Below, in pieces: positions 1 to 30,373 of a DNA stretch of 30,373 nt. Within the stretch, counting starts at the first letter, position 1. Every line of letters begins with the position of its first letter. The position numbers and the translations under genes are program-made. Below the pieces are notes generated by a model that saw only the letters and a list, made by a program, of their open reading frames with translations, was not told where the DNA came from and did no database searches. Origin of the DNA: Deltaproteobacteria bacterium (GTDB lineage Bacteria; Myxococcota; UBA727; VGSZ01); contig JACOUT010000005.1 in assembly GCA_016177705.1 (NCBI GenBank), forward strand, positions 1 through 30,373, in the 5' to 3' direction.

Positions 1-885
1 AGGGTCGGCGGCGCCGTCGCCGCCGGGACAGCCGCCCCGGCGGGAGCCGTCGACGACGCCGGCCGCGAGGCCCGCGCCGCCGCCCGCGCCGCCCGTGTCC
101 GGCGCGATGCCGCCTACCCCGCCGTCGAGGCCGTGGGCTCCTCCCCCTCCTCCGCCCGACTCGATCTGGCCGCCGCCGTCGGCACCTTCGAGGCCCACGC
201 CGCCGGCGCCGGCGCCGCACTCACCGGCGCTGCGCGCGCCGGCGCCGGCGCGCGCGCGTCGCGCGCTCGCGTCGAGCATGCCGTCGAGACGCGCGTCGCC
301 GAAGACCGCGATCACCACGGCCGCGCTACCGGTGAACTGCAGCGTCGCGCCTGCAGCGATGTCGAGCGAGTCGAGCGCCAGCACGAGCGCGCCGTCGGGG
401 CCGCGCTGCAGCGCGGATGCGCTGATGCCCACGAGGCAGCCGTCGAGCGTGGGCGCGTCGGTGTCGATGCCGGTGCTGCACACGACCGAGAGCGCGCCGC
501 CGGGAGCGAGCGCGTCGGGATCGAGGCCGAGCGGAGTGAACGGGAAGGTGGCGGGATCGCCCTCGCCCTCGCCCTCACCTTCTCCTTCTCCTTCTCCCTC
601 TCCTTCTCCTTCTCCTTCTCCTTCTCCTTCGCCTTCTCCTTCGCCTTCTCCTTCGCCTTCTCCTTCGCCTTCTCCTTCTCCTTCTCCTTCGCCCTCTCCC
701 TCTCCCTCGCCTTCGCCTTCGCTCGGGGATGCTTCGGCGGCGCAGACGCCCGCGTAGCAGTTGGCGCCCGGTGGGCACTCGTCGTCGGCGGTGCACGCCA
801 ACGCGGCCATGCCGACCAAGCGGCAGGCCGTGACCACGACCAGCAGCGTCACCACCAGCGCCGTCAGGCGCACACGCGAGCCCAC
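1..885 (-). CDS. Secreted lipoprotein, 3'-truncated by the window edge. It has a signal peptide with lipobox, a short Cys motif, an ~28x Glu-Gly acidic linker, then a Gly-rich and beta-strand-rich region.
   Basis: Hand translation of the minus strand in the frame antisense to the listed +133..1008 ORF gives MGSRVRLTALVVTLLVVVTAC-RLVGMAALAC-TADDECPPGANCYAGVCAAEASPS-(EG)n-DPATFPFTPLGLDPDALAPGGALSVVCSTGIDTDAPTLDGCLVG...GGGGGAHGLDGGVGG... The frame is open all the way to position 1, which is why no terminated minus ORF in this frame appears in the track. An in-frame TAG lies just upstream at 895-897. The start is GTG at 885, with an alternative GTG at 873 giving MRLTALVV.... It has a positively charged n-region, a hydrophobic core and a VTAC lipobox. 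Confidence 0.6.
   Translation of the reverse strand, partial: MGSRVRLTALVVTLLVVVTACRLVGMAALACTADDECPPGANCYAGVCAAEASPSEGEGEGEGEGEGEGEGEGEGEGEGEGEGEGEGEGEGEGEGEGEGEGEGEGEGEGDPATFPFTPLGLDPDALAPGGALSVVCSTGIDTDAPTLDGCLVGISASALQRGPDGALVLALDSLDIAAGATLQFTGSAAVVIAVFGDARLDGMLDASARRARAGAGARSAGECGAGAGGVGLEGADGGGQIESGGGGGGAHGLDGGVGGIAPDTGGAGGGAGLAAGVVDGSRRGGCPGGDGAADP
559..722. repeat. Imperfect hexanucleotide tandem repeat (CCTTCT / CCCTCG units on the plus strand, GAGGGC / GAAGGA on the minus strand). It codes the (Glu-Gly)n linker of the 1..885 lipoprotein.
   Basis: Directly visible run ccctcgccctcgccctcaccttctccttctccttctccctctccttctcc.... All three plus-strand frames and the other two minus frames give low-complexity SP, FS and poly-R ORFs in the track, which is typical of a coding microsatellite read in wrong frames. 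Confidence 0.9.
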
Positions 886-14321: not shown

Positions 14322-15772
14322 GCGCGGCTCCGCGCTCGTTCGCCGAGCGCGCTCAAGAGCTTGTCGTGAATGCCGCCAAAGCCGCCATTCGACATGCACA
14401 GCAACACCGCGCCGCGCGGCGCCTCCTTCACCACGTGGCGTACCAGCTCCTCGATGGACGCGCAGGCGGTGGCGGGACGCCCGCGCATGCCGACGTCGGC
14501 GGCCAGCTTGGCGACGTCGAGCGCGACGGTCGGGTCGAGCTGCCGCCCCGAGGGCGCCAGCAGCACGCGATCGGCCGCGTCGAAGGCGCGCGCGTAGTCG
14601 TCCTGAAAGATCTTGCGGCAGCTCGTCGCCGAGCGCGGTTCGAACAGCGCCCACAAGGGCCGCCCGGCGAAGCGCTTCTTGGCGCCCTCGAGCGTGCTGC
14701 GCACCGCGGTGGGGTGGTGCGCGAAGTCGTCGACCACCAGGCAGGCGTCCGCCTCGCCGCGCTGCTCGAGGCGACGCTTGACGCCGGGGAAGCTCTCGAA
14801 GCCGAGCGCGATCTCGTCGTGCGTCAGCCCGAGGCCGGCGAGCACCGCGTAGGCGCCGAGCGCGTTCAGCAGGTTGTGGCGGCCCGACAGCGGCAGGAAG
14901 ATCTCGCCCTCGTCGCCGCCCATGGCCGACATCACGCCGGTGGTGTGCGCGCCGAACGACACCACGAAGCGCAGCCCGCGCTCGTCTTCCACGACGTCGT
15001 GCGCGTCGTAGCTGCCGCCCGCGCCGTAGCTGGTGACGCGCGCCTTGACCGAGGCCTGCGCGCGCGCCTTCATCAGGTTGCGCTCCTCGGCGCACAAGAC
15101 GATGTGTCCGTCCGCCGGCACCAGGCTCAACAGCTCGGCGAAGCGGGCGATGATGGCGTCGACGCTCGGGTAGATGTCGGCGTGGTCGTACTCGAGCGAG
15201 GTGCACAGGAGCGAGCGCGGTCGGTAGTGGAGGAACTTCGGTCCCTTGTCGAAGTAGGCGGTGTCGTACTCGTCGCCCTCGACGACGAAGGGCGAGCGCT
15301 TGCCGGGCGCGCCCAGCCGAAACGACTCGCCGCCCGAGCCGTCGGCGTTGAGCGGGATGCCGCCGACCAGGAAGCCCGGATCGCGCTTGGTCTTCATCAG
15401 CGTGTGCGCGATCAACGTCGCCGTGGTGGTCTTGCCGTGCGTGCCGGCCACCACCACGCTGTTGCGCTCGGCCAAAAACAGCTTGCCGAGCGTCTCGGGG
15501 AACGAGGCTTGCGCCAGGCCCCGCTCGCGCGCGGCGGTCGCCTCCGGGTTGTCCCTCCGGATCACGTTGCCGACGACGGTCAAGTCGGGCGCCGGCTCGA
15601 GGTTGGTTGCAGCGTAGGGCGTCTTCGCGTCGATGCCCCACTCGCGCAGCTTGTCGCTCATCGGCGGATAGACGTTCTCGTCCGAGCCGCCGACCTGGTA
15701 GCCGGCCTGCCGCAACAGCCCGGCAAAGGCGCCCATGCCGGTCCCGGCCACGCCGATCAGATGGATGCGCAT
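14318..15772 (-). CDS. mpl: UDP-N-acetylmuramate:L-alanyl-gamma-D-glutamyl-meso-diaminopimelate ligase (murein peptide ligase).
   Basis: It is collinear with E. coli Mpl along its length: MRIHLIGVAGTGMGAFAGLL, YPPMSDKL, VVAGTHGKTTT (P-loop), VVEGDEYDTAYFDKGPKF, LEYDHADI, DDFAHHPTA, MSNGGFGGIHDKLL. Confidence 0.85.
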   Translation of the reverse strand: MRIHLIGVAGTGMGAFAGLLRQAGYQVGGSDENVYPPMSDKLREWGIDAKTPYAATNLEPAPDLTVVGNVIRRDNPEATAARERGLAQASFPETLGKLFLAERNSVVVAGTHGKTTTATLIAHTLMKTKRDPGFLVGGIPLNADGSGGESFRLGAPGKRSPFVVEGDEYDTAYFDKGPKFLHYRPRSLLCTSLEYDHADIYPSVDAIIARFAELLSLVPADGHIVLCAEERNLMKARAQASVKARVTSYGAGGSYDAHDVVEDERGLRFVVSFGAHTTGVMSAMGGDEGEIFLPLSGRHNLLNALGAYAVLAGLGLTHDEIALGFESFPGVKRRLEQRGEADACLVVDDFAHHPTAVRSTLEGAKKRFAGRPLWALFEPRSATSCRKIFQDDYARAFDAADRVLLAPSGRQLDPTVALDVAKLAADVGMRGRPATACASIEELVRHVVKEAPRGAVLLCMSNGGFGGIHDKLLSALGERARSRA

Positions 15773-15785
15773 GGCGCCAGATACC

Positions 15786-16283
15786 TCAGCGCCGGCTCGC
15801 CTTGAACTGCCCGTCGGTGAACGAGAGGTTCCCCGAGCCGTCGCTCAGATCGACCGCGAAGCGCCCGAGCAGCACGCCCCCCTGCTCGTCGATGATGGCG
15901 ACGGCGCCCGTGTGATCGGCGTTCGACTGGAAGGCGCCGCCGTTCAAAAGCGCGCTGCCGCGGGTCTCGCTGCGCTCCGCGAGCCTGACGCAGATTGGGA
16001 AAGCGCCGTCGGCGATGAGCTGCTCGGTGTCGGTGCCGGTCTCATCCTTGGCGATGATCATGTCGAGCAGCCCGATGGTGACGCTGCCGCTCGAGCCCGG
16101 CGCCCAGGAGGCGTCCTGCCCCGTGAAGTCGTCGCCGTCGGAGCGCGTCGCCTCGCCGGTTCCGTCGGCGACGTCGGGCGCGGCGGTCGAGATGCCGCAC
16201 ACCTCGCTCGGGAACACGGGGCAGCCCGCCGCCCCGACCAGGGCGGCGAGCGGGGCGATGGCCGTCATCCATGGGCTATGCAT
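15786..16283 (-). CDS. Small hypothetical lipoprotein of ~160 aa.
   Basis: MHSPWMTAIAPLAALVGAAGC has an AAGC lipobox. It has high GC3 and balanced composition (D, E, K, F, I). There is an alternative ATG at 16268. It lies 14 bp upstream of the mpl start on the same strand. Confidence 0.55.
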   Translation of the reverse strand: MHSPWMTAIAPLAALVGAAGCPVFPSEVCGISTAAPDVADGTGEATRSDGDDFTGQDASWAPGSSGSVTIGLLDMIIAKDETGTDTEQLIADGAFPICVRLAERSETRGSALLNGGAFQSNADHTGAVAIIDEQGGVLLGRFAVDLSDGSGNLSFTDGQFKASRR

Positions 16284-16377
16284 CGGCGCAGTCTGGTGAG
16301 AATCCCGCCGACGTCAAGCCCCGGAAGATCCGCGGGGCGCCTTGACGACCACCCCCCAAGTGACGACAACCACGCTG

Positions 16378-16674
16378 ATGGTCTCGCTGCTGCTCCTGTT
16401 GTGCGCCGCCGCCCCCGATTGGGCGGCGTGGCTCGAGGACGCCGCGGCCACCATCGCCCCCCTCGAGGACGTCGATGCGGCCGCCAGCGAAGCGACCGCG
16501 GTGGCACAGCGGGCCGGCACCAGCGCCGCCGCCGTTCTGCCACCGGTCGGTCGGCTCCGGCCGCCGGCGCCGCGCGTCTGCGAGGTGCCGTCCGTCCAGC
16601 CGACCGACGTGCCGCGCCCGCCGACGGTGCTGGGCGAGGGCGGGGCGACGGCGCGCGGCCCACCGCGCCGCTAG
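16378..16674 (+). CDS. Possible small secreted or leader ORF upstream of secA (speculative).
   Basis: This is an internal ATG of the listed 16342..16674 ORF giving MVSLLLLLCAAAPDWAAWLEDAAATIAPLEDVDAAASEATAVAQRAG.... It has a hydrophobic N-terminus and high GC3. There is no family support, and it could be a chance ORF in the GC-rich divergent promoter region. Confidence 0.25.
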   Translation: MVSLLLLLCAAAPDWAAWLEDAAATIAPLEDVDAAASEATAVAQRAGTSAAAVLPPVGRLRPPAPRVCEVPSVQPTDVPRPPTVLGEGGATARGPPRR

Positions 16675-16754
16675 CGCCGCTCCCTTCGCCGGCGCGCACC
16701 GTTCGTGCGCCGCGCGCACATCCCGCCCTCCCCCTCTCGAGCAGCGAGCTCCCC

Positions 16755-19943
<3,189 letters not shown>

Positions 19944-20148: not shown

Positions 20149-23238
<3,090 letters not shown>

Positions 23239-23239
23239 C

Positions 23240-24490
23240 TCAGCGCCCCTCGCGCTGCTGGCCGGCGTCCGGCTCGTCGGTGCCGGCGCCGGCGTCCCTG
23301 GGAGCTCCACCCTGCGGCACCGCCGCCGGCGCCTCCTTGGGGATGATCGGGCTGCCGTCGCGCAGCATCTGCAGCGACGAGACCGCGATGCGGTCGCCCG
23401 CGGACAGGCCGCGCTCGACGACGAAGCCGTCGGCGCCGAGGCGGCCGAGCGTCACCGGACGGCGCGTGACCACGGTTCGCGCGGGCCCGCCCGCCCCCTC
23501 GCCGGGCCGTTGCTCCGTGACGACGAAGACGAACGGTGTGCCACTCTGGCGCGTCACGGCGGTCGCCGGGATCAAGAGCGCCGCGCCGCTGCCGAAGATG
23601 ACGCGCACGCGCACCAGCTCGCTCGGTCGCAAACCGGTCACGTTGGGGAACGCCGCCTTGATGTCCACCAGCTGCGTGCGCGCGTCCGCGTGCGGCGCGA
23701 CGTAGAACACGGGCGCGCTCGCGGCGGTGGCGCCGTGCGCGTCGAGCACCTCGACGGTGGTCAGCTCGCCGAGCGCGCGCGCCCGCTCGGCGGGGATCGC
23801 CACCGTCACCTCGACGGCGGCCGCGGCGCGAGCTGCGCCCTGGTCGACCGCTCGCCCGGCGCCGATCGCGCCGTCGACGTCCGGCGCGATCGTCGTGATC
23901 TGGGTTTGTGGGGTGACCGCGTCGCCGATGCGGACCAGCACATCGCCGAGCGTGCCGCCGACCGCGGCGCGCACCGTGTGGAAGTCGACGCGCACCTCGC
24001 GCAACGCGACGCCCGCGCTCGCCGCCTGTGCGGCCGCGTCGGCGGCGGCGACCGCGGCCCGCGCCTGGTCGACCTCCTGCGCGGGCGCGAGCCCCTCGGT
24101 CAAGAGCTTCTCGGCGCGCTCGAGGTTGGTGCGCGCAAGCGAGTGGCGGGCCTCGGCGGCGGCGACGTCGGCGCGCGCGCTCAACAGCGCGGCGTTCTCG
24201 CCGCGCGCGTCGATGTCGACGAGCTGGTCGCCAGCCGCCACCGTCGCGCCCGGCTTGACGTGAATGCGGCGTACGTAACCGCCCACCTGCGGATACACGT
24301 CGATGCTCGCGCGCGACGACAGCGTGCCGAGGTAGTCGGCGGTGTCGCGTACCGTGGCGGGCGCGATCGTGAGCACCTCGACCTCGCGCGGCGCCGGCGC
24401 CTTGGCGGCCGGCTGCGGGGCGCACCCCGGCGCGGCGAGCATGGACGCGAACGACAACGCGACGATGAAGGACTTGGTCATGCTGGGCAC
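23240..24490 (-). CDS. RND efflux periplasmic adaptor subunit (membrane fusion protein) lipoprotein.
   Basis: MPSMTKSFIVALSFASMLAAPGC is a signal with lipobox. It has the coiled-coil hairpin and beta-barrel regions typical of the HlyD/AcrA family. Its ATG lies inside the last codons of the upstream OMF gene, a 13-nt overlap. Confidence 0.85.
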   Translation of the reverse strand: MPSMTKSFIVALSFASMLAAPGCAPQPAAKAPAPREVEVLTIAPATVRDTADYLGTLSSRASIDVYPQVGGYVRRIHVKPGATVAAGDQLVDIDARGENAALLSARADVAAAEARHSLARTNLERAEKLLTEGLAPAQEVDQARAAVAAADAAAQAASAGVALREVRVDFHTVRAAVGGTLGDVLVRIGDAVTPQTQITTIAPDVDGAIGAGRAVDQGAARAAAAVEVTVAIPAERARALGELTTVEVLDAHGATAASAPVFYVAPHADARTQLVDIKAAFPNVTGLRPSELVRVRVIFGSGAALLIPATAVTRQSGTPFVFVVTEQRPGEGAGGPARTVVTRRPVTLGRLGADGFVVERGLSAGDRIAVSSLQMLRDGSPIIPKEAPAAVPQGGAPRDAGAGTDEPDAGQQREGR

Positions 24491-25860
24491 CGAGCGAGCG
24501 TGAAGAAGGCGTCGAGGCGAGCGCGCAGCCAGTCGGCTTCGCGCAGCGCCAGCTCGAGCTGCGCCTGGCGGAGCACGACGCCGCTCTGCACCAAGTCGAA
24601 GCTGTCCGCGCGGCCGAGCTCGAAGGCGCGGCGCGTGAGCCGATCGAGCTCGAGCGCGAGCCCGTGCGCCTCGCGCGCCGAGTCGACCAACGCCGCGGCA
24701 GCGCGTTCGGCGCTCGCGGCGCGACGGTGCTCGAGCAGCGCGTCGCGCCGCGCGACCGCGAGCGCGGCGTCGGCGCCGAGGACGGCGCCGCTCCGTTCGG
24801 CGACCAGACCTTCACGGAAGCCGCCCTCCCAGAGCGGCACGGCGATCACGGCGGCGATCGTCCAGCTCGCGAAGCGACCTGGTCCCGGGTCGCTGGTGTA
24901 CGCGCCGACGTTGCTCGCGAGGCCGAGGGTCGGCAGGTAGCCGGTCCACGCAGCGCGGCGCGCGGCTTCGGCCGCGTCGCGGCGGGCGCGCGCCGACGTG
25001 ACGTCGGCGCGGTCGTCGACGTGCTCGCGATCGAGCGCCTGGCATGGGGCTGCCGCGTCGGCGATCAGGCCGTCGAGCGCGAATGCCGGCGAGACCGACA
25101 CCGGCTCGGCGAGGCCGAGCGCGGCGCCAAGCGCCTCGCGGGCGGTGCGCAGCGCCTCGTCGACCGTGGTAAGCGCGGTACGCGCGACCGCGACGTCCTG
25201 CTGCACGCGAACCACATCGAGCTGCGAGGCGGCCCCGAGCGCCACCAGGCGCTCGGTGAGCGCGGCGCGTTCGAGCGCCTGGCGAAGGCCGGTGCGGCCG
25301 ATCTCGGCGATGCGCTCCGAGGACGCGGCAGTGGCGACCGCGCGAGCGAGCACCCTCGTTTGGCGGCGACGCACGTCCTCGACGCTCGCCTCGGCGGCTC
25401 GCGTCGCGGCGTCGGCCACGTCGAGGGCGCTCCAGGCCGACAGGTCGACGACGGACTGCCGCAGCGTTGCGCCTGCGGAGCCGAGCGGCGCGGTGGGGGC
25501 GGGCGCAGCCGAGCCGGAGAACAGCGCGTTGCCGAGGTTGACGCCGCCCGCCGGCACCGGGCTCGCCGGGTTGAGCACGTCGTAGCCGACGCCGGCGGTG
25601 AGGGCCGCGTGCGGCAACAAACTCGACAACGATTGACGCCACCGACCCTGCGCCTGGACAACGGCGGCCTCAGCAGCGCGGAGGTCGAGCGAGCCCTCGT
25701 CGAGCAGCCCTCGCGCTTCGCTCCACGTCGACAGCGTGATCAGGGCGGGCGGCACGGGCGCGAGCTGCGGGTCGTCGGCGTGCCCGGCCGCAGCGGCGAC
25801 CAGCGGGCAGATCATCAGTGCTGCGATTCGGTGCGCGGGCATGCTGTGGTGTTCTTGCAT
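24478..25860 (-). CDS. TolC-family outer membrane efflux factor.
   Basis: It has two tandem OEP-type repeats, a Leu/Ala/Arg-rich coiled-coil composition and a signal peptide MPAHRIAALMICPLVAAAAGHA. The start is chosen as the ATG at 25860, with an alternative at 25842. The listed ORF extends spuriously to 25968. Confidence 0.8.
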   Translation of the reverse strand: MQEHHSMPAHRIAALMICPLVAAAAGHADDPQLAPVPPALITLSTWSEARGLLDEGSLDLRAAEAAVVQAQGRWRQSLSSLLPHAALTAGVGYDVLNPASPVPAGGVNLGNALFSGSAAPAPTAPLGSAGATLRQSVVDLSAWSALDVADAATRAAEASVEDVRRRQTRVLARAVATAASSERIAEIGRTGLRQALERAALTERLVALGAASQLDVVRVQQDVAVARTALTTVDEALRTAREALGAALGLAEPVSVSPAFALDGLIADAAAPCQALDREHVDDRADVTSARARRDAAEAARRAAWTGYLPTLGLASNVGAYTSDPGPGRFASWTIAAVIAVPLWEGGFREGLVAERSGAVLGADAALAVARRDALLEHRRAASAERAAAALVDSAREAHGLALELDRLTRRAFELGRADSFDLVQSGVVLRQAQLELALREADWLRARLDAFFTLARCPA

Positions 25861-25936
25861 ATTGACGACCCGAGCACTGCTTGGATGTGGGCGGCGGCTC
25901 TCGGTTGCGCCGGCGGCGTTCGGTTGTGGCAACGAG

Positions 25937-26020
25937 GTATCCGTCGGGCCAACCCCGTCCGGCGACAACCACTACCGCGACATGTGGTTCACCGTCGGAC
26001 GGGGTTGGCCGGACGGATAC
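25937..26020. promoter_or_regulatory. Nested dyad-symmetry element: 28-bp arms GTATCCGTCGGGCCAACCCCGTCCGGCG / CGTCGGACGGGGTTGGCCGGACGGATAC with 2 mismatches, flanking a 28-bp spacer that itself contains the AACCAC...GTGGTT palindrome. Candidate regulatory or structured element upstream of the efflux operon.
   Basis: Read directly from the sequence. The arm motif CCGGACGGATAC occurs a third time at 26361..26372. The element sits 77 bp upstream of the TolC-like start, where one would expect a TetR-type or similar operator, but no adjacent regulator gene is present. Confidence 0.4.
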
Positions 26021-26042
26021 TGACAGCGGCCGCGTTGACAAG

Positions 26043-26319
26043 GTGAAACGTGCCGATGCGTCGCGGCCGATCCTTGCGTGCGATTTTTCTTGGGCAAGGC
26101 ACGAGTTCCGGGACACCGAGACGGGCACGAAGATCGACGAGGCCCTTGGCTACCTCGTGCGTCAGCGCCTCCCGCTCCGGCGGTTCCTCGAGGACGCGAT
26201 GCTTCGCTTGGACAACAAAGCTCGCCCCGACGAACTGGAGCGAGACCCTCGCCAAGCCGGCAACCCAGGCGCTCCTCGATGAGCTGAGGCTGCTCCGCGA
26301 CGAGGACGCCTCGGCGTAG
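26043..26319 (+). pseudogene. Possible frameshifted small ORF in a locally lower-GC patch. Identity unknown.
   Basis: Frame A (GTG 26043) reads ...ILACDFSWARHEFRDTETGTKIDEALGYLVRQRLPLRRFLEDAMLRLDNKARPDELE with good GC3, then decays. Frame +1 takes over near 26225-26235, around an AAA run, with high GC3: ...WSETLAKPATQALLDELRLLRDEDASA*. Neither frame alone gives a convincing gene. The region is visibly less GC-rich than its flanks. Confidence 0.25.
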
Positions 26320-26416
26320 TCAGCGTGCGCGACCGAGCAGCCCTCGTCCTGACGCGGTTCCCCGGACGGATACACGCAACTGGATCAGCTCCCAACCAAG
26401 GCGGATCCGTGCCCGC

Positions 26417-26445
26417 TTGCATCGCGAAGGCGCGTTCACTAATAC
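26417..26445 (+). promoter_or_regulatory. Candidate sigma70-type promoter for arsR: TTGCAT, 17 bp, TAATAC. It would give a leaderless or near-leaderless transcript.
   Basis: The hexamers are at 26417-26422 and 26440-26445. The arsR ATG at 26454 has no SD sequence. The -10 element overlaps the operator palindrome. Confidence 0.3.
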
Positions 26446-26465
26446 AGAACCATATGGTTCAGTAT
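26442..26465. promoter_or_regulatory. 24-bp near-perfect palindrome ATACAGAACCAT|ATGGTTCAGTAT centred exactly on the arsR start codon. Putative ArsR/SmtB-type autoregulatory operator.
   Basis: 11 of 12 base pairs are symmetric. It contains a TGAAC half-site as in SmtB/CzrA-type operators. It overlaps the putative -10 element and the translation start. Confidence 0.5.
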
Positions 26466-26813
26466 CGCGGCGCCCGCCTCGATCTCTCGTTCGCCGCGCT
26501 CTCGGACGCGACCCGCCGCGGGATCCTCGAGCAGCTCGGGCGCGCAGACGCGTCGATCACGGATCTCGCGGAGCGATTCGCGATGAGCCTCACGGGCATG
26601 AAGAAGCACGTCCGCGTTCTTGAGGAGGCGGGCCTCGTCGCGACGAAGAAGGTCGGGCGCGTGCGCACGTGCAAGCTCGGCCCGCGCCAACTGCAAGAAG
26701 AGACGGCGTGGCTCGAACGACACCGCGCGACGTGGGCCGCGCGCTTCGACGACCTCGACAAGGTGGTCGCAGAGATGAAACAGAGGGAGACGACCCATGG
26801 ACGCAAGAAGTGA
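26454..26813 (+). CDS. ArsR/SmtB-family winged-helix transcriptional regulator.
   Basis: It is 119 aa. The HTH ITDLAERFAMSLTGMKKHVRVLEEAGLV matches the ArsR recognition helix pattern. It is an internal ATG of the listed 26325..26813 ORF. It overlaps the downstream AHSA1 gene by 17 nt. Confidence 0.85.
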   Translation: MVQYRGARLDLSFAALSDATRRGILEQLGRADASITDLAERFAMSLTGMKKHVRVLEEAGLVATKKVGRVRTCKLGPRQLQEETAWLERHRATWAARFDDLDKVVAEMKQRETTHGRKK

Positions 26814-27579: not shown

Positions 27580-30373
27580 ATGCGCGGGCCATTGCTGCTC
27601 ACGGCCTTCATGTTCGTGTTGGCTTGTCCGGCCCTGTTGGACGGCGGGGGCGAGGAGGGCGAGGGCGAAACAAGCGAGGGTGAGGGAGAGGGCGAGGGCG
27701 AGGGAGAGGGTGAGGGTGAGGGAGAGGGTGAGGGAGAGGGTGAGGGTGAGGGCCTACGCTTCGGCGGCATCGCGCACGTCGTCGCGGATGGCACCGGCGC
27801 AGTGGTCGTGACCTGGCTCGAGGCGGTCGACGACGTCACCGCGCACGCGCAGATGAGCTACCACCTGTACCGCGACGACAGCGAGGCCGCCGTGATCGCG
27901 CAGGTCGACGGCGGTGGAGCGCCCGTTGCCACATTCACGGGTGTCACGCAGAGCACGATCACGGGCCTGAGCGCGGGCCAGACGATCTGGCTGTTGGTCG
28001 TCGCCCAGGACGGCGATGGCAACACCAGCAGCGACCGGCGCGCGGTCCCCGCCACCACGGCATCTGTTCCGCTGGTCTTGCGCGCCCCCGTGACCGACCT
28101 GTCGACCCTCGACGTCGCCGTGACCGAACACGGCGTGGACGCGTTCACGGTCGTCGGTCCTGACGCTGCTGCGCTCGCGGTCGGCGACCTCATCATCGTA
28201 GACAACACGTTTGGTCGAACGCTGCGCCGGATCATCGCCTACGCCGGCAGCGGACCTGACTTCGCGATGACAACCGAGAAAGCCGACCTGATGGCCGCGA
28301 TCCAGTCGGGCGAGGTGCGCGCGTCCGCTGTGATGGTGTCCCCCGAGACCAGCGGGCTGTCGGGCCAGGCCGCCGGACACTGGTCGCGCCGCTACCACGA
28401 TGACAGCACGGGCTTGTCCATCACCGAGAGCGGCACGCGCCGCGTCGACTTCCTTGAGACCGACGGCGTCGCGCCATTGGCGGTCGATGACCTCGAAGAC
28501 GGCATCACGCTCGAATACGAGATGGGTTTCGAGCCGAGCTTCGAAGCGATCGTGCGCTTCAGCGACAGCTTCGTCGACACTCCGGAGTCGATCCGCATGA
28601 CGGCTACCGGGGCGTTCACGGTGCACGGCCTCGCTGCGTTCCAGACCTCGGGCGAGCTCGAAGTGGAGAAGGAGAAGGAGCTGCTCTCGCGCACGTTCCG
28701 CATGGTCTACGCGGTGGGCGGAGTTCCCGTGTACCAGGAAGTCATCCTCACGTTGATGGGAGCCGTGGAGCTCAACGCCGCCAGCAGCTTCGTCGCCGCC
28801 ATGGAGGTCGACGCGGAGAAGACCTTCACGTTCGGCTTTCAGTGGAATGAAGCGAGCGGTGCGCAGCTGATCCGCGAAGACGGCTTCACCCAGGAGACCA
28901 CCTTCACGCTCACCAGCGACGCGGAGGCCTCCGTCACGCTCAAGGTCTATCCGGTCATCAAGACGCGCTTCTACAAGGTCGCATCGGCGTCGCTCGAGGT
29001 GGTACCGCAGCTCACCGCGGAGGCACGAGCGCGCTTCCTGCCGCTGCCCGTGGAGCTCGAGAAGGCCGACGTCGACTTCGTCGTCGACGCCGGTGTGGAG
29101 CTCGACCTGTCGATCTTCTCGAAGAACCTGTGGAAGTGGGAGAGCCCGCGCGTGGAGCTGTACCGCGTGCCAATACACAGCCAACCCGAGATCAAAGCGA
29201 TGGCGACCACGACCACCGGCAACACGTGTCACCCGTTGTCGTTCTTCCTCGGCATCCAGGATGGGTACCTGAACAAGGTGCTACCGGAGAACATCGGGCT
29301 CGCTGTCTCGCCGCCAGGCCCGGTGCTGTCCATCATCGGCGTCCGCGGCGAGATCGAATCGAGCATGCCCGGCACCTTCGAGGTGCAGGTGAGCGCGTAC
29401 GGTGACGGCGTGCTCGGTCCCATCGGCGCGCGCCACACGACATTCGAGGTGACGTTCGAGGACGCGGGTCTGCCCTGCGATCAGGTGCCGCCGCCGGGCG
29501 CCGGCCGCGCGCTCAGCTGCCTTCTGGACGTCGAGAGCGGGCTGATCGCGCCGCCATATTTCTCGCAGGATCGGATCGAAACGCCGATGCCCACGCTGGT
29601 CGCCGGCGGCCCCTGGTTGATGCTGCCGATGCGCATGGTGCGACCCATGACGCTCTCTTTGCTCATCTACTACGACGACCAGGGAGGCGCTTGGGAGAGC
29701 GGCGGCGGAGGACCCATCGGCCTCTTCGAGCCGATGCCATTCGAGGGCGTCATCCAAGTCCCGTTCATCCTCGAGAACGGCTTCACGACCTATAACGCCC
29801 CGCCGCGCGTGTACCGGCCGGCCATGTGGCTCGATGACTGCGAGACGCCGTCACCGTATGTGCTCTGCGAGAGCACGCAGTGGTGGTTCCTCACGCCCGG
29901 CACCTCCGGTGGCTTGCCGTTCCCTGACACGTACGATGTGACCACCGGCCGGCTCGGTGACGACGTCACCTCCAGTGCTGACGACGAGGCCTGCTACAAC
30001 CAGCCCACCGGGATCCCGATCCCCACCTTCGAGCTGGTGGGGCCGCGCGCGATCGCCGACCGCGACGACACTCCAGCGGGCGCCACCAGCCTTCAGCAGT
30101 TCGTGCGCGTGCGCAAGAGCGGCGGCGGCAGCGACGACGACTTCTTCCGCTTCGACCCGGCCGAGAACACACCGGGTGGGCCCGTTGTGTTCGATCAGAC
30201 TCCACCCGCGCCGCTCGAGGAGGGCTGCATGGTGGTCGTGCGCGCGGCGCTGGAGGCAGGCGGCACAGCGCCGCACCTCAAGGTGCACGACGGCGAGGCG
30301 GGCGCCGCGGCCGACAACGCGATCGTCGCCGAGGGCGACGGCGAGGTGTCGTTCCTGCCGAACCCCACGCACG
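27580..30373 (+). CDS. Large secreted lipoprotein (>930 aa, 3' end beyond the window). It has a signal peptide with lipobox, an ~17x Glu-Gly linker, an FN3-like domain, then a large beta-rich region.
   Basis: MRGPLLLTAFMFVLAC has an LAC lipobox. It is followed by PALLDGGGEEGEGETSEGEGEGEGEG...LRFGGIAHVVADGTGAVVVTWLEAVDDVTAHAQMSYHLYRDD...ITGLSAGQTIWLLVVAQDGDGNTS, an FN3-like W/Y/ITGL/GN.S pattern. The frame stays open to position 30373 with strong GC3 bias. The track shows no terminated plus ORF in this frame because it runs off the window. The listed 27754..29232(-) 492-aa ORF is its antisense shadow. Confidence 0.7.
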   Translation, partial: MRGPLLLTAFMFVLACPALLDGGGEEGEGETSEGEGEGEGEGEGEGEGEGEGEGEGEGLRFGGIAHVVADGTGAVVVTWLEAVDDVTAHAQMSYHLYRDDSEAAVIAQVDGGGAPVATFTGVTQSTITGLSAGQTIWLLVVAQDGDGNTSSDRRAVPATTASVPLVLRAPVTDLSTLDVAVTEHGVDAFTVVGPDAAALAVGDLIIVDNTFGRTLRRIIAYAGSGPDFAMTTEKADLMAAIQSGEVRASAVMVSPETSGLSGQAAGHWSRRYHDDSTGLSITESGTRRVDFLETDGVAPLAVDDLEDGITLEYEMGFEPSFEAIVRFSDSFVDTPESIRMTATGAFTVHGLAAFQTSGELEVEKEKELLSRTFRMVYAVGGVPVYQEVILTLMGAVELNAASSFVAAMEVDAEKTFTFGFQWNEASGAQLIREDGFTQETTFTLTSDAEASVTLKVYPVIKTRFYKVASASLEVVPQLTAEARARFLPLPVELEKADVDFVVDAGVELDLSIFSKNLWKWESPRVELYRVPIHSQPEIKAMATTTTGNTCHPLSFFLGIQDGYLNKVLPENIGLAVSPPGPVLSIIGVRGEIESSMPGTFEVQVSAYGDGVLGPIGARHTTFEVTFEDAGLPCDQVPPPGAGRALSCLLDVESGLIAPPYFSQDRIETPMPTLVAGGPWLMLPMRMVRPMTLSLLIYYDDQGGAWESGGGGPIGLFEPMPFEGVIQVPFILENGFTTYNAPPRVYRPAMWLDDCETPSPYVLCESTQWWFLTPGTSGGLPFPDTYDVTTGRLGDDVTSSADDEACYNQPTGIPIPTFELVGPRAIADRDDTPAGATSLQQFVRVRKSGGGSDDDFFRFDPAENTPGGPVVFDQTPPAPLEEGCMVVVRAALEAGGTAPHLKVHDGEAGAAADNAIVAEGDGEVSFLPNPTH
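27652..27753. repeat. GAGGGY / GAGGGA hexamer repeat encoding the (Glu-Gly)n linker of the 27580 lipoprotein.
   Basis: Directly visible as gagggcgagggcgagggagagggtgagggtgagggagagggtgag.... The same repeat class, on the opposite strand and in a different gene, occurs at 559..722. Confidence 0.9.

What the first reader, a model, noticed from the sequence alone, without database searches (positions are those of the whole stretch)
25937..26372. Nested 84-bp dyad-symmetry element plus a third copy of its arm motif CCGGACGGATAC between the efflux operon and arsR
Two 28-bp inverted arms with 2 mismatches enclose a 28-bp spacer that itself carries the AACCAC/GTGGTT palindrome. This gives a potential cruciform or long RNA hairpin. 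The arm core CCGGACGGATAC recurs at 26361..26372, downstream of a GTT(GG)CC prefix like the others. The element lies 77 bp upstream of the TolC-MFP-RND operon start. No TetR-family or other regulator is encoded next to the operon. The element could be the operator of a trans-encoded regulator, a small structured RNA, or a miniature repeat element. The 300 bp following it have locally reduced GC and contain the apparently frameshifted ORF.
Basis: seen in the sequence. Interest (0 to 1): 0.5.

Follow-up and report, generated by a model that had tools for sequence, protein, structure and literature searches.

The report
Decayed IS66-family insertion sequence remnant
The dyad element, its third arm copy and the frameshifted ORF are the wreck of one IS66-family insertion sequence lying between the efflux operon and arsR, so the feature is ordinary transposon debris and not a regulatory site.

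Summary
The arms 25937-25964 and 25993-26020 pair at 26 of 28 positions. A third copy ends at 26373, one base right of the stated coordinates.

All of 25937-26373 is mobile-element debris. A scan of reference genomes found a 2499-bp contig (L005) that is one complete IS66-family element, with tnpA, tnpB, tnpC and terminal inverted repeats. The window matches it in four pieces:
- 25937-25964 matches IS positions 1-28, the left-end repeat (26/28).
- 25958-26020 matches IS positions 63 to 1, the left end inverted (62/63).
- 26021-26218 matches IS positions 1949-2146 (93%).
- 26219-26373 matches IS positions 2344-2498 (96%), ending in the right-end repeat.

So the dyad is two left ends placed head to head. 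The AACCAC/GTGGTT palindrome is native subterminal IS sequence. The "frameshifted ORF" is a tnpC pseudogene carrying a 197-bp deletion. The lower GC (66.6% against 71.2% for the window) equals that of the IS.

The end motif GTATCCGTCCGG marks IS66-type ends in 65 metagenome loci, and none of them repeats the 84-bp unit. The nearest relatives of tolC and of arsR lack the element.

The operator and small-RNA readings are not supported, and the MITE reading is unsupported. Interest is low.

The parts
25937..26020 (.). The 84-bp palindrome, made of two left-end (IRL-type) termini of the IS placed head to head.
   Evidence: Inverted repeat I1, 26/28 complementary. The fold energy is -68.2 kcal/mol, z = -8.9. 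BLASTN places it on IS positions 1-28 (+) and 63 to 1 (-).
25937..25961 (+). Outer IRL-type terminus, IS positions 1-25, with one mismatch (C10G). Its tip is at 25937 and it is read here as the left end of the original + oriented copy.
   Evidence: It matches IS 1-28 at 26/28. The second mismatch, at position 26, is explained if the junction lies in the TCCG shared by IS 22-25 and the reverse complement of IS 63-60.
25958..26020 (-). Inverted IS left end, IS positions 63 to 1, with its tip at 26020. It contains the native subterminal AACCAC/GTGGTT palindrome, which lies upstream of tnpA in the intact IS.
   Evidence: 62/63 identical to L005, E = 8e-26. Its terminal 30 nt are identical to the L005 IRL.
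26021..26218 (+). Internal tnpC fragment, IS positions 1949-2146, joined directly to the tip of the inverted left end.
   Evidence: BLASTN gives 93.4% over 198 bp, E = 8e-83. TBLASTN matches TnpC residues 374-443 at 89% identity, E = 2e-32. Pfam DDE_Tnp_IS66 scores E = 7.8e-5 and NCBIfam IS66 transposase E = 7e-4.
26219..26373 (+). The 3' end of tnpC (stop codon at 26317-26319), the subterminal region and the right-end repeat (IRR), IS positions 2344-2498. A 197-bp deletion (IS 2147-2343) at the 26218/26219 boundary shifts the frame.
   Evidence: BLASTN gives 96.1% over 155 bp, E = 3e-69. TnpC residues 504-538 match at 86% in a different frame. The deletion junction sequences are shown.
26348..26373 (+). 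IRR, the right terminal inverted repeat.
   Evidence: Its terminal 30 nt are identical to the L005 IRR. It is 81% complementary to 25937-25962 (I3), which is the usual degree of IRL/IRR imperfection.
25861..25936 (-). Host DNA upstream of tolC. It is conserved with the closest relative only up to about 25915.
   Evidence: Window 22036-25915 aligns to L007 at 88%. Homology stops about 22 bp before the IS end.
26374..26453 (+). Host DNA upstream of arsR. Its promoter-like region and the palindromic operator candidate (26442-26465) are conserved in relatives.
   Evidence: In the alignment with L013, L016 and L017, homology resumes at about 26395, roughly 22 bp right of the IS end. The palindrome is I11.

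Best explanation
Window 25937-26373 is a non-functional, internally deleted remnant of an IS66-family insertion sequence. The intact form is about 2.5 kb, carries tnpA-tnpB-tnpC, and has 26-28-bp terminal inverted repeats beginning GTATCCGTCCGG.

Shown directly:
- The three 'arm' copies are IS termini: two of the left-end type and one of the right-end type.
- The spacer is native subterminal IS sequence.
- The broken ORF is the 3' part of the DDE transposase gene tnpC with a 197-bp deletion.

Inferred history:
1. A copy in + orientation (left end at 25937, right end at 26373) received a second copy, or its own end, in inverted orientation at tnpC position 1949.
2. This created a long inverted repeat with arms of about 1.9 kb, which is expected to be unstable.
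3. That repeat collapsed by a deletion of about 4.4 kb between the 4-bp direct repeat TCCG (IS 22-25 and the reverse complement of IS 63-60). The outermost 25 and 59 bp survived as the 84-bp palindrome.
4. A separate 197-bp deletion removed tnpC codons of about 444-503.

No transposase, tnpA or tnpB survives, so the remnant cannot move on its own. No regulatory role needs to be invoked. Any effect on the tolC operon or on arsR would be incidental.
For: - A scan of GTDB genomes with the 20-mer arm found L005, a 2499-bp contig that is a complete IS. It has a TnpC of 537 aa (Pfam DDE_Tnp_IS66 1e-61, plus the IS66_C, LZ and zf-IS66 domains), a TnpB_IS66 (2.5e-22), an upstream tnpA-like ORF, and inverted repeats at both contig ends.
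- BLASTN of the window against this IS gives 26021-26218 = IS 1949-2146 (93%, 8e-83), 26219-26373 = IS 2344-2498 (96%, 3e-69), 26020-25958 = IS 1-63 (98%, 8e-26) and 25937-25964 = IS 1-28 (26/28).
- TBLASTN matches TnpC residues 374-443 at 89% (2e-32) and 504-538 at 86%, in two different frames. The fragment alone hits IS66 models in Pfam and NCBIfam.
- GC of the remnant is 66.6% and of the IS 67.4%, against 71.2% for the window.
- The terminal 12 bp GTATCCGTCCGG are invariant at both ends of the relatives L011 (83.6% identical over 2498 bp) and L012.
- The pattern GTATCCGTCCGGNNAACCNCGTC hits 65 metagenome loci. Of these, 34 carry IS66 tnpA/B/C. Eight are full-length elements of 2.45-2.8 kb with both ends in the contig, and two more are longer (5.0 and 9.6 kb). 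L079 has an 8-bp target duplication.
- The element is absent upstream of the closest tolC (L007, 88% DNA identity up to 22 bp from the IS end) and upstream of arsR in relatives at 90-91% protein identity.
Against: - The remnant has no 8-bp target-site duplication. The flanks are GCAACGAG and ACGCAACT, so a simple single insertion is not demonstrated.
- The order of events (nested insertion followed by collapse of a long palindrome) is inferred from the junction sequences only.
- The source genome could not be searched, so neither the presence of intact copies in the same organism nor an exact empty site was shown.
- The window comes from a metagenome-assembled contig, so the junctions have not been checked against reads.
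- The taxonomic label of L005 (Rhodocyclales bin) may be a binning accident, because that contig consists of the IS alone.
Confidence: 0.92

Rival explanations
1. The 84-bp unit is a true MITE. On this reading it is a short non-autonomous element with two IS termini, moved in trans by a full-length IS66 relative, which landed next to or inside an older IS remnant.
For: Both arms are near-perfect IS termini with their tips facing outward, as a transposase substrate requires. A possible 157-bp MITE-like element with the same 12-bp tips and a 6/8 matching flank exists in L003, so small derivatives of this IS group may occur.
Against: - The 84-bp unit has no target-site duplication. Its flanks are GCAACGAG and TGACAGCG, and the right flank is internal IS sequence.
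- An exact scan for the 25-mer arm in JGI metagenomes found nothing.
- The 20-mer scan of 185,579 species genomes found only L005 as a true IS end.
- None of the 65 loci with related termini carries a short + then - end pair.
- Both arms are of the left-end type, which fits two copies of one end better than a left-end/right-end mini-element.
Confidence: 0.04
2. The dyad is the operator of a trans-encoded regulator that controls the TolC-MFP-RND operon or arsR.
For: It is a long dyad lying 77 bp upstream of the operon start, with no adjacent TetR-type regulator. The spacer half-sites AACCA/TGGTT weakly resemble the arsR palindrome GAACCATATGGTTC (D3, 71% over 24 nt).
Against: - The whole dyad is IS sequence, 62/63 and 26/28 identical to an IS in another bin.
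- The closest tolC operon (L007) keeps the proximal 55 bp of upstream DNA but has no dyad.
- 28-bp arms are far longer than typical operator half-sites.
- The arsR promoter and operator are conserved separately at about 26400-26465 in relatives that lack the IS.
Confidence: 0.02
3. The 84-nt hairpin is a structured small RNA or a transcription attenuator or terminator.
For: The predicted hairpin is very stable, at -68.2 kcal/mol and z = -8.9.
Against: - Rfam returns only sub-gathering matches to eukaryotic miRNA hairpin models on both strands, which is a generic long-hairpin artefact.
- No U-tract follows the stem on either strand, and the terminator scan does not flag it.
- No sigma-70-like promoter was found in 25700-26600.
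- The stem exists only because one IS end is duplicated in inverted orientation.
- In the IS relative L011, 3 of the 6 inner AACCAC/GTGGTT pairs are broken without compensation.
Confidence: 0.02
4. The arrangement, or part of it, is an assembly artefact. This could apply to the head-to-head ends, or to the join between the tolC block and the arsR block, which might have been made through a repeated IS in a metagenome-assembled genome.
For: - The ArsR protein is 100% identical to a protein of a Deltaproteobacteria MAG, on a 362-kb contig.
- Synteny with the nearest relatives breaks on both sides within about 22 bp of the IS ends.
- Repeats are classic points of mis-joining.
Against: - The remnant has its own private features: the C10G change in the outer arm, 4-7% divergence from L005, and a unique 197-bp deletion.
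- Its junctions share only 4 bp of microhomology, far below any assembler k-mer, so reads must span them.
- At 437 bp the remnant is short enough to be bridged by read pairs.
Confidence: 0.04

Closest known systems
IS66-family insertion sequences (IS66 of Agrobacterium, IS679, ISRm14 and relatives; three-ORF tnpA-tnpB-tnpC type)
   Same: The intact reference copy (L005) is 2498 bp. It has three consecutive ORFs, with Pfam matches for TnpB_IS66 and for DDE_Tnp_IS66, IS66_C, LZ and zf-IS66 in TnpC. It has imperfect terminal inverted repeats of 26-28 bp. A relative (L079) has an 8-bp target duplication. The 8-bp duplication of IS66, and unmatched flanks as a sign of recombination between IS copies, are described in PMC6778807.
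   Different: The window copy keeps only about 17% of the element: two left ends, 353 bp of the right part, no intact gene and no target duplication. The tips read GTATCC. From my own memory of Han et al. 2001 and Gourbeyre et al. 2010, which I could not read here, many named IS66 members have GTAAGCG-type tips. No near-identical named IS was found among plasmid records; the only hits were distant IS66 transposases at 71-78% over about 100 bp.
MITEs (miniature inverted-repeat transposable elements derived from IS ends)
   Same: The unit is short and non-coding, and is bounded by outward-facing IS termini that can form a long hairpin.
   Different: It has no target-site duplication and no other copy was found. 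Both arms are the same (left) end. It is physically joined to further debris of the same IS.
Residual short palindromes left after long inverted repeats collapse in bacteria (slipped-mispairing deletion between short direct repeats at the base of a hairpin). This rests on established knowledge, for example Leach 1994, recalled from memory.
   Same: The deletion junction lies in a 4-bp direct repeat (TCCG) near the outer ends of what would have been an inverted repeat with 1.9-kb arms. A shorter palindrome remains.
   Different: The precursor (one IS nested inside another in inverted orientation) is inferred and was not observed.
REP/BIME-type intergenic palindromic repeats
   Same: A GC-rich intergenic palindrome lying between divergent transcription units.
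   Different: REPs are 20-40 bp, occur in hundreds of copies per genome, and are linked to RAYT transposases. Here the 30-kb window holds a single locus, and the sequence is demonstrably IS66 termini.

Membership tests
IS66 family insertion sequence | It encodes a DDE transposase TnpC (Pfam PF03050). | tested here: met
   The window fragment scores 22.7 bits on PF03050 (E = 7.8e-5), just below the gathering score of 23.1, and E = 7e-4 on NCBIfam IS66. It is 86-89% identical in protein to L005 TnpC, which hits PF03050 at 1e-61. In the window the gene is a pseudogene.
IS66 family insertion sequence | It has the tnpA-tnpB-tnpC three-ORF organisation with TnpB_IS66 (PF05717). | tested here: not met
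   The organisation is present in the reference copy L005. It is absent from the window: TBLASTN with TnpA and TnpB finds nothing. The window therefore holds a remnant and not a complete member.
IS66 family insertion sequence | It has imperfect terminal inverted repeats of about 20-30 bp at both ends. | tested here: met
   The left-end type tip is at 25937 and the right end at 26373, 81% complementary over 26 nt. They match the L005 left-end repeat at 26/28 and its right-end repeat at 30/30. The 12-bp tips are invariant in L011, L012 and the full-length metagenome copies.
IS66 family insertion sequence | It is flanked by an 8-bp target-site duplication. | tested here: not met
   The window flanks are GCAACGAG and ACGCAACT. 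The relative L079 does have an 8-bp duplication, AGAATTTC. Unmatched flanks are expected after recombination between IS copies (PMC6778807) or after decay.
IS66 family insertion sequence | It occurs in several dispersed copies in the host genome. | not testable with these tools
   The source genome is not in the searchable collections. It is a MAG encoding MBI1945988.1, and neither the 20-mer scan of GTDB representatives nor the exact protein look-ups returned it. There is only one locus in the 30-kb window.
MITE | It is a short non-coding unit bounded by terminal inverted repeats of an autonomous IS. | tested here: met
   The unit is 84 bp and both arms are left-end type termini.
MITE | It is flanked by a target-site duplication. 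| tested here: not met
   The flanks are GCAACGAG and TGACAGCG, and the right flank is IS position 1949 onward.
MITE | It occurs in multiple copies at unrelated sites. | tested here: not met
   The exact 25-mer arm gave 0 hits in JGI metagenomes. None of the 65 loci with related ends has a short end pair. The host genome itself could not be tested.
Transcription-factor operator of the efflux operon | It is conserved at the orthologous promoter in related genomes. | tested here: not met
   L007 (TolC 86% identical, DNA 88%) shares the proximal 55 bp of upstream DNA but has no dyad.
Structured non-coding RNA | It matches a known family, or its pairs are maintained by compensatory changes. | tested here: not met
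   There is no Rfam match at gathering score. In L011 the inner palindrome loses 3 of 6 pairs without compensation.

The most novel reading that the evidence does not exclude
The most novel reading not excluded is that the left-end tip joined to the element's own tnpC at position 1949 records a self-targeted (intramolecular) transposition event of an IS66-family element, and not a nested insertion from a second copy. On that reading the residual 84-bp palindrome is a natural product of how such events are resolved. The transposition chemistry of IS66 is poorly characterised, so a set of such junctions could inform it. A weaker variant is that the 84-bp unit is still mobilisable in trans as a MITE.
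Probability: 0.12. Interest if true: 0.3.

Novelty: new member of a known kind. Interest (0 to 1): 0.1.

Why it matters
The practical value is for annotation. The 437 bp between the efflux operon and arsR should be labelled as an IS66-family remnant (a tnpC pseudogene plus termini), and not as a regulatory dyad, a small RNA or a hypothetical ORF.

It also marks a likely rearrangement or insertion point. Synteny with the nearest relatives of both flanking gene blocks ends within about 22 bp of the IS ends.

The terminal motif GTATCCGTCCGG(N2)AACC(N)CGTC is a handy signature for a widespread environmental IS66 subgroup, with 65 metagenome loci found here. None of this changes current understanding of efflux regulation or of IS biology.

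Tried and rejected
- **Rfam.** The scan of 25700-26600 gave only sub-threshold miRNA-hairpin matches on both strands, which I rejected as a generic long-hairpin artefact. An Rfam scan of the five non-IS 20-mer loci found nothing.
- **Promoters and terminators.** No sigma-70-like promoter was found, and the dyad is not terminator-like.
- **Exact protein look-ups.** Look-ups of the window's ArsR, intended to fetch the source contig, failed twice.
- **Plasmid search.** Searching plasmid records with the full IS for a named element gave only distant IS66 transposase hits.
- **Empty site.** The closest TolC (L007, L008) and ArsR (L013-L017) relatives do not have the two gene blocks adjacent. This shows only that the IS is absent there, and it does not define a precise empty site.
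- **First metagenome scan.** The exact 25-mer arm returned no hits.
- **Target-site duplication.** None was found. A shared GCAAC lies 3 bp outside the left tip and 2 bp outside the right tip. I judged it unconvincing, because the tips of L005, L011 and L012 show no extra conserved bases.
- **Resemblance to the arsR operator.** The 71% similarity between the dyad spacer and the arsR operator (D3) was rejected as chance, because the spacer is native IS sequence.
- **Literature.** Han et al. 2001 (PMC95320) is not held in the library.

Full report
**1. The observation**

The arms 25937-25964 and 25993-26020 are 28 nt long and 26/28 complementary, with a 28-nt spacer. The spacer contains AACCAC (25967-25972) and GTGGTT (25984-25989), concentric with the arms.

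The 12-mer CCGGACGGATAC occurs at 26009-26020 and at 26362-26373, which is one base to the right of the coordinates given. A one-mismatch copy lies on the minus strand at 25937-25948. That is 3 matches against 0.08 expected by chance. The third copy is similar over 23-26 nt. As RNA the 84-nt unit folds at -68.2 kcal/mol, z = -8.9.

**2. What it is**

Reading the 330 bp between the second and third arm copies in three frames gave a peptide (...ILACDFSWARHEFRD...IDEALGYLVRQRLPLRRFLEDAMLRLDNK) that looked like an IS66 transposase. Pfam DDE_Tnp_IS66 (E = 7.8e-5, 22.7 bits) and NCBIfam IS66 transposase (E = 7e-4) agreed.

A scan of one genome per species (185,579 species) with the 20-mer arm GGGGTTGGCCSGACGGATAC returned six loci. 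One of them, L005, is a 2499-bp contig from a groundwater MAG binned as Rhodocyclales, and it is a complete insertion sequence:
- a TnpC of 537 aa (PF03050 at 1e-61, plus the IS66_C, leucine-zipper and zinc-finger domains);
- a TnpB_IS66 of 130 aa (2.5e-22);
- an upstream tnpA-like ORF of 121 aa;
- inverted repeats at the two contig ends.

Taking the IS in its tnpA-to-tnpC orientation, BLASTN maps the window onto it as follows:

| Window | IS positions | Strand | Identity |
|---|---|---|---|
| 25937-25964 | 1-28 | + | 26/28 |
| 25958-26020 | 63 to 1 | - | 62/63 |
| 26021-26218 | 1949-2146 | + | 93.4%, E = 8e-83 |
| 26219-26373 | 2344-2498 | + | 96.1%, E = 3e-69 |

TBLASTN matches TnpC residues 374-443 (89%, E = 2e-32) and 504-538 (86%) in different frames. 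The "frameshift" is therefore a 197-bp deletion (IS 2147-2343).

The three arm copies are IS termini. The copy at 26020 is identical to the L005 left-end repeat (IRL) over its terminal 30 nt. The copy at 26373 is identical to the L005 right-end repeat (IRR) over its terminal 30 nt. The copy at 25937 is of the left-end type with one private change, C10G.

The AACCAC/GTGGTT palindrome is native IS sequence (IS 32-37 and 49-54), lying between the left-end repeat and tnpA. The locally lower GC (66.6% against 71.2% for the window) equals that of the IS (67.4%).

**3. Relatives**

The closest TnpC relatives are at 88% and 81% identity, followed by many at about 50-64%. Most sit on contigs of about 2-3 kb, as expected when a repeat assembles on its own.

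L011 is 83.6% identical to L005 over all 2498 bp, and L012 is about 67% identical. In both, the terminal 12 bp GTATCCGTCCGG are invariant at both ends.

A metagenome scan with GTATCCGTCCGGNNAACCNCGTC found 65 loci:
- 34 carry IS66 tnpA/B/C;
- most of the others have the motif at a contig edge;
- eight are complete elements of 2.45-2.8 kb, and two more are longer (5.0 and 9.6 kb);
- L079 shows an 8-bp target duplication, AGAATTTC. This matches the 8 bp reported for IS66 (PMC6778807).

None of the 65 loci has a short pair of inward-facing ends or a head-to-head pair like the one in the window. The exact 25-mer of the window's arm is absent from the JGI metagenomes.

In L011, three of the six AACCAC/GTGGTT pairs are broken without compensation. 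The inner palindrome is therefore not a conserved structure.

**4. Host context**

The window's neighbours are a TolC-MFP-RND operon on the minus strand and an arsR-AHSA1 pair on the plus strand.

On the tolC side, the closest TolC (86% identical, L007) shares 88% DNA identity with window 22036-25915. Homology stops about 22 bp before the IS end. The upstream gene there is a polyketide-cyclase-like gene, and there is no IS and no arsR.

On the arsR side, ArsR relatives at 90-91% identity keep arsR-AHSA1 and a conserved promoter and operator region. Their upstream genes differ (a beta-lactamase-family gene or DUF6178), and they have no IS. Homology with the window resumes at about 26395, roughly 22 bp right of the IS end.

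So the remnant sits exactly at a synteny junction. It has no 8-bp duplication (GCAACGAG against ACGCAACT). Unmatched flanks are what recombination between IS copies leaves behind (PMC6778807), but decay or an imperfect comparison set would give the same picture. This step is inference.

**5. How the dyad arose (inference)**

The 84-bp unit equals IS 1-25 followed by the reverse complement of IS 1-59. The junction lies in a TCCG shared by IS 22-25 and the reverse complement of IS 63-60. The tip of the inverted end abuts tnpC position 1949.

The simplest history is:
1. A + oriented copy spanned 25937 to 26373.
2. A second copy, or the element's own end, inserted in inverted orientation at position 1949. 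This gave an inverted repeat with arms of about 1.9 kb.
3. A deletion of about 4.4 kb between the TCCG direct repeats left only the outermost parts of the two left ends.
4. A separate 197-bp deletion occurred in tnpC.

Long inverted repeats are known to be unstable in bacteria and to collapse by such deletions. That is established knowledge recalled from memory and was not tested here.

**6. Function**

Nothing suggests a function. There is no intact gene. No Rfam family reaches threshold. The dyad has no promoter-like or terminator-like features. It is not conserved at orthologous promoters. The arsR operator candidate (26442-26465) and the proximal 55 bp upstream of tolC are conserved independently of the remnant.

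**7. Caveats**

- The window derives from a MAG. Its ArsR is 100% identical to MBI1945988.1, from a Deltaproteobacteria bacterium, on a 362-kb contig. The junctions have not been checked against reads, and the host genome could not be searched for further copies.
- L005 consists only of the IS, so its taxonomic bin is unreliable. From the accession series it may come from the same groundwater study. That is my inference and is unverified.

**8. Verdict**

The feature is an ordinary remnant of an unnamed IS66-family element, a new member of a known kind. Interest is low.

Noticed in passing
window 26442-26465: A near-perfect 24-bp palindrome, ATACAGAACCAT|ATGGTTCAGTAT, overlaps the arsR start codon (ATG at 26454). 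An upstream CTTGCAT...TAATAC promoter-like pair accompanies it. The whole block is conserved in ArsR relatives at 90-91% identity (L013, L016, L017). It is a likely autoregulatory ArsR operator.
   Followed up: partly
L003 5619-5775: In a Bacteroidetes MAG, a 157-bp element is bounded by GTATCCATCCGG ... CCGGACGGATAC, the same tips as this IS66 subgroup. Its flanks are CATAACAA and CATAAATA (6/8 identical). It is a possible MITE-like derivative. No IS66 gene lies nearby.
   Followed up: partly
L001, L002, L004, L006 (positions): Exact matches of 20-25 nt to the IS arm occur in unrelated genomes (Planctomycetota, Bacteroides, Solibacteraceae). They have no IS66 genes nearby and no extended similarity. 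They may be solo end relics or chance; naive expectation is about 2 hits.
   Followed up: partly
L064 1-22: An IS66-type right-end tip (GGATAC) lies only 6 bp (TGCTAC) from the left-end tip (GTATCC) of a full-length copy. This could be tandem copies or an end-to-end junction, and it may bear on the transposition mechanism.
   Followed up: no
L023 126-9683 and L079 1407-6403: Elements of 9.6 kb and 5.0 kb are bounded by the same termini. L079 has a clean 8-bp duplication (AGAATTTC), with tnpC and tnpB separated by about 3 kb of extra DNA. L023 has TACATTTG on both sides, offset 4 bp outside the GTATCC tips. They may be IS66 derivatives carrying passenger or inserted DNA.
   Followed up: no
window 15735-19943 (+): In the SecA ORF as listed (1402 aa), the SecA_DEAD domain starts only at residue 345. 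Either the ORF has a long N-terminal extension or it is an over-extended ORF call in high-GC DNA.
   Followed up: no
window 27754-29232 (-): A 492-aa ORF downstream of the arsR-AHSA1 pair has no Pfam match at E <= 1.
   Followed up: no
window 25861-25915 and L007 9927-10000: About 55 bp upstream of tolC are conserved at roughly 88% with the closest relative. This is probably the operon's promoter region, and it lies intact to the left of the IS remnant. The TolC start codon is ambiguous: ATG at 25860, or at 25842 as called in L007.
   Followed up: partly
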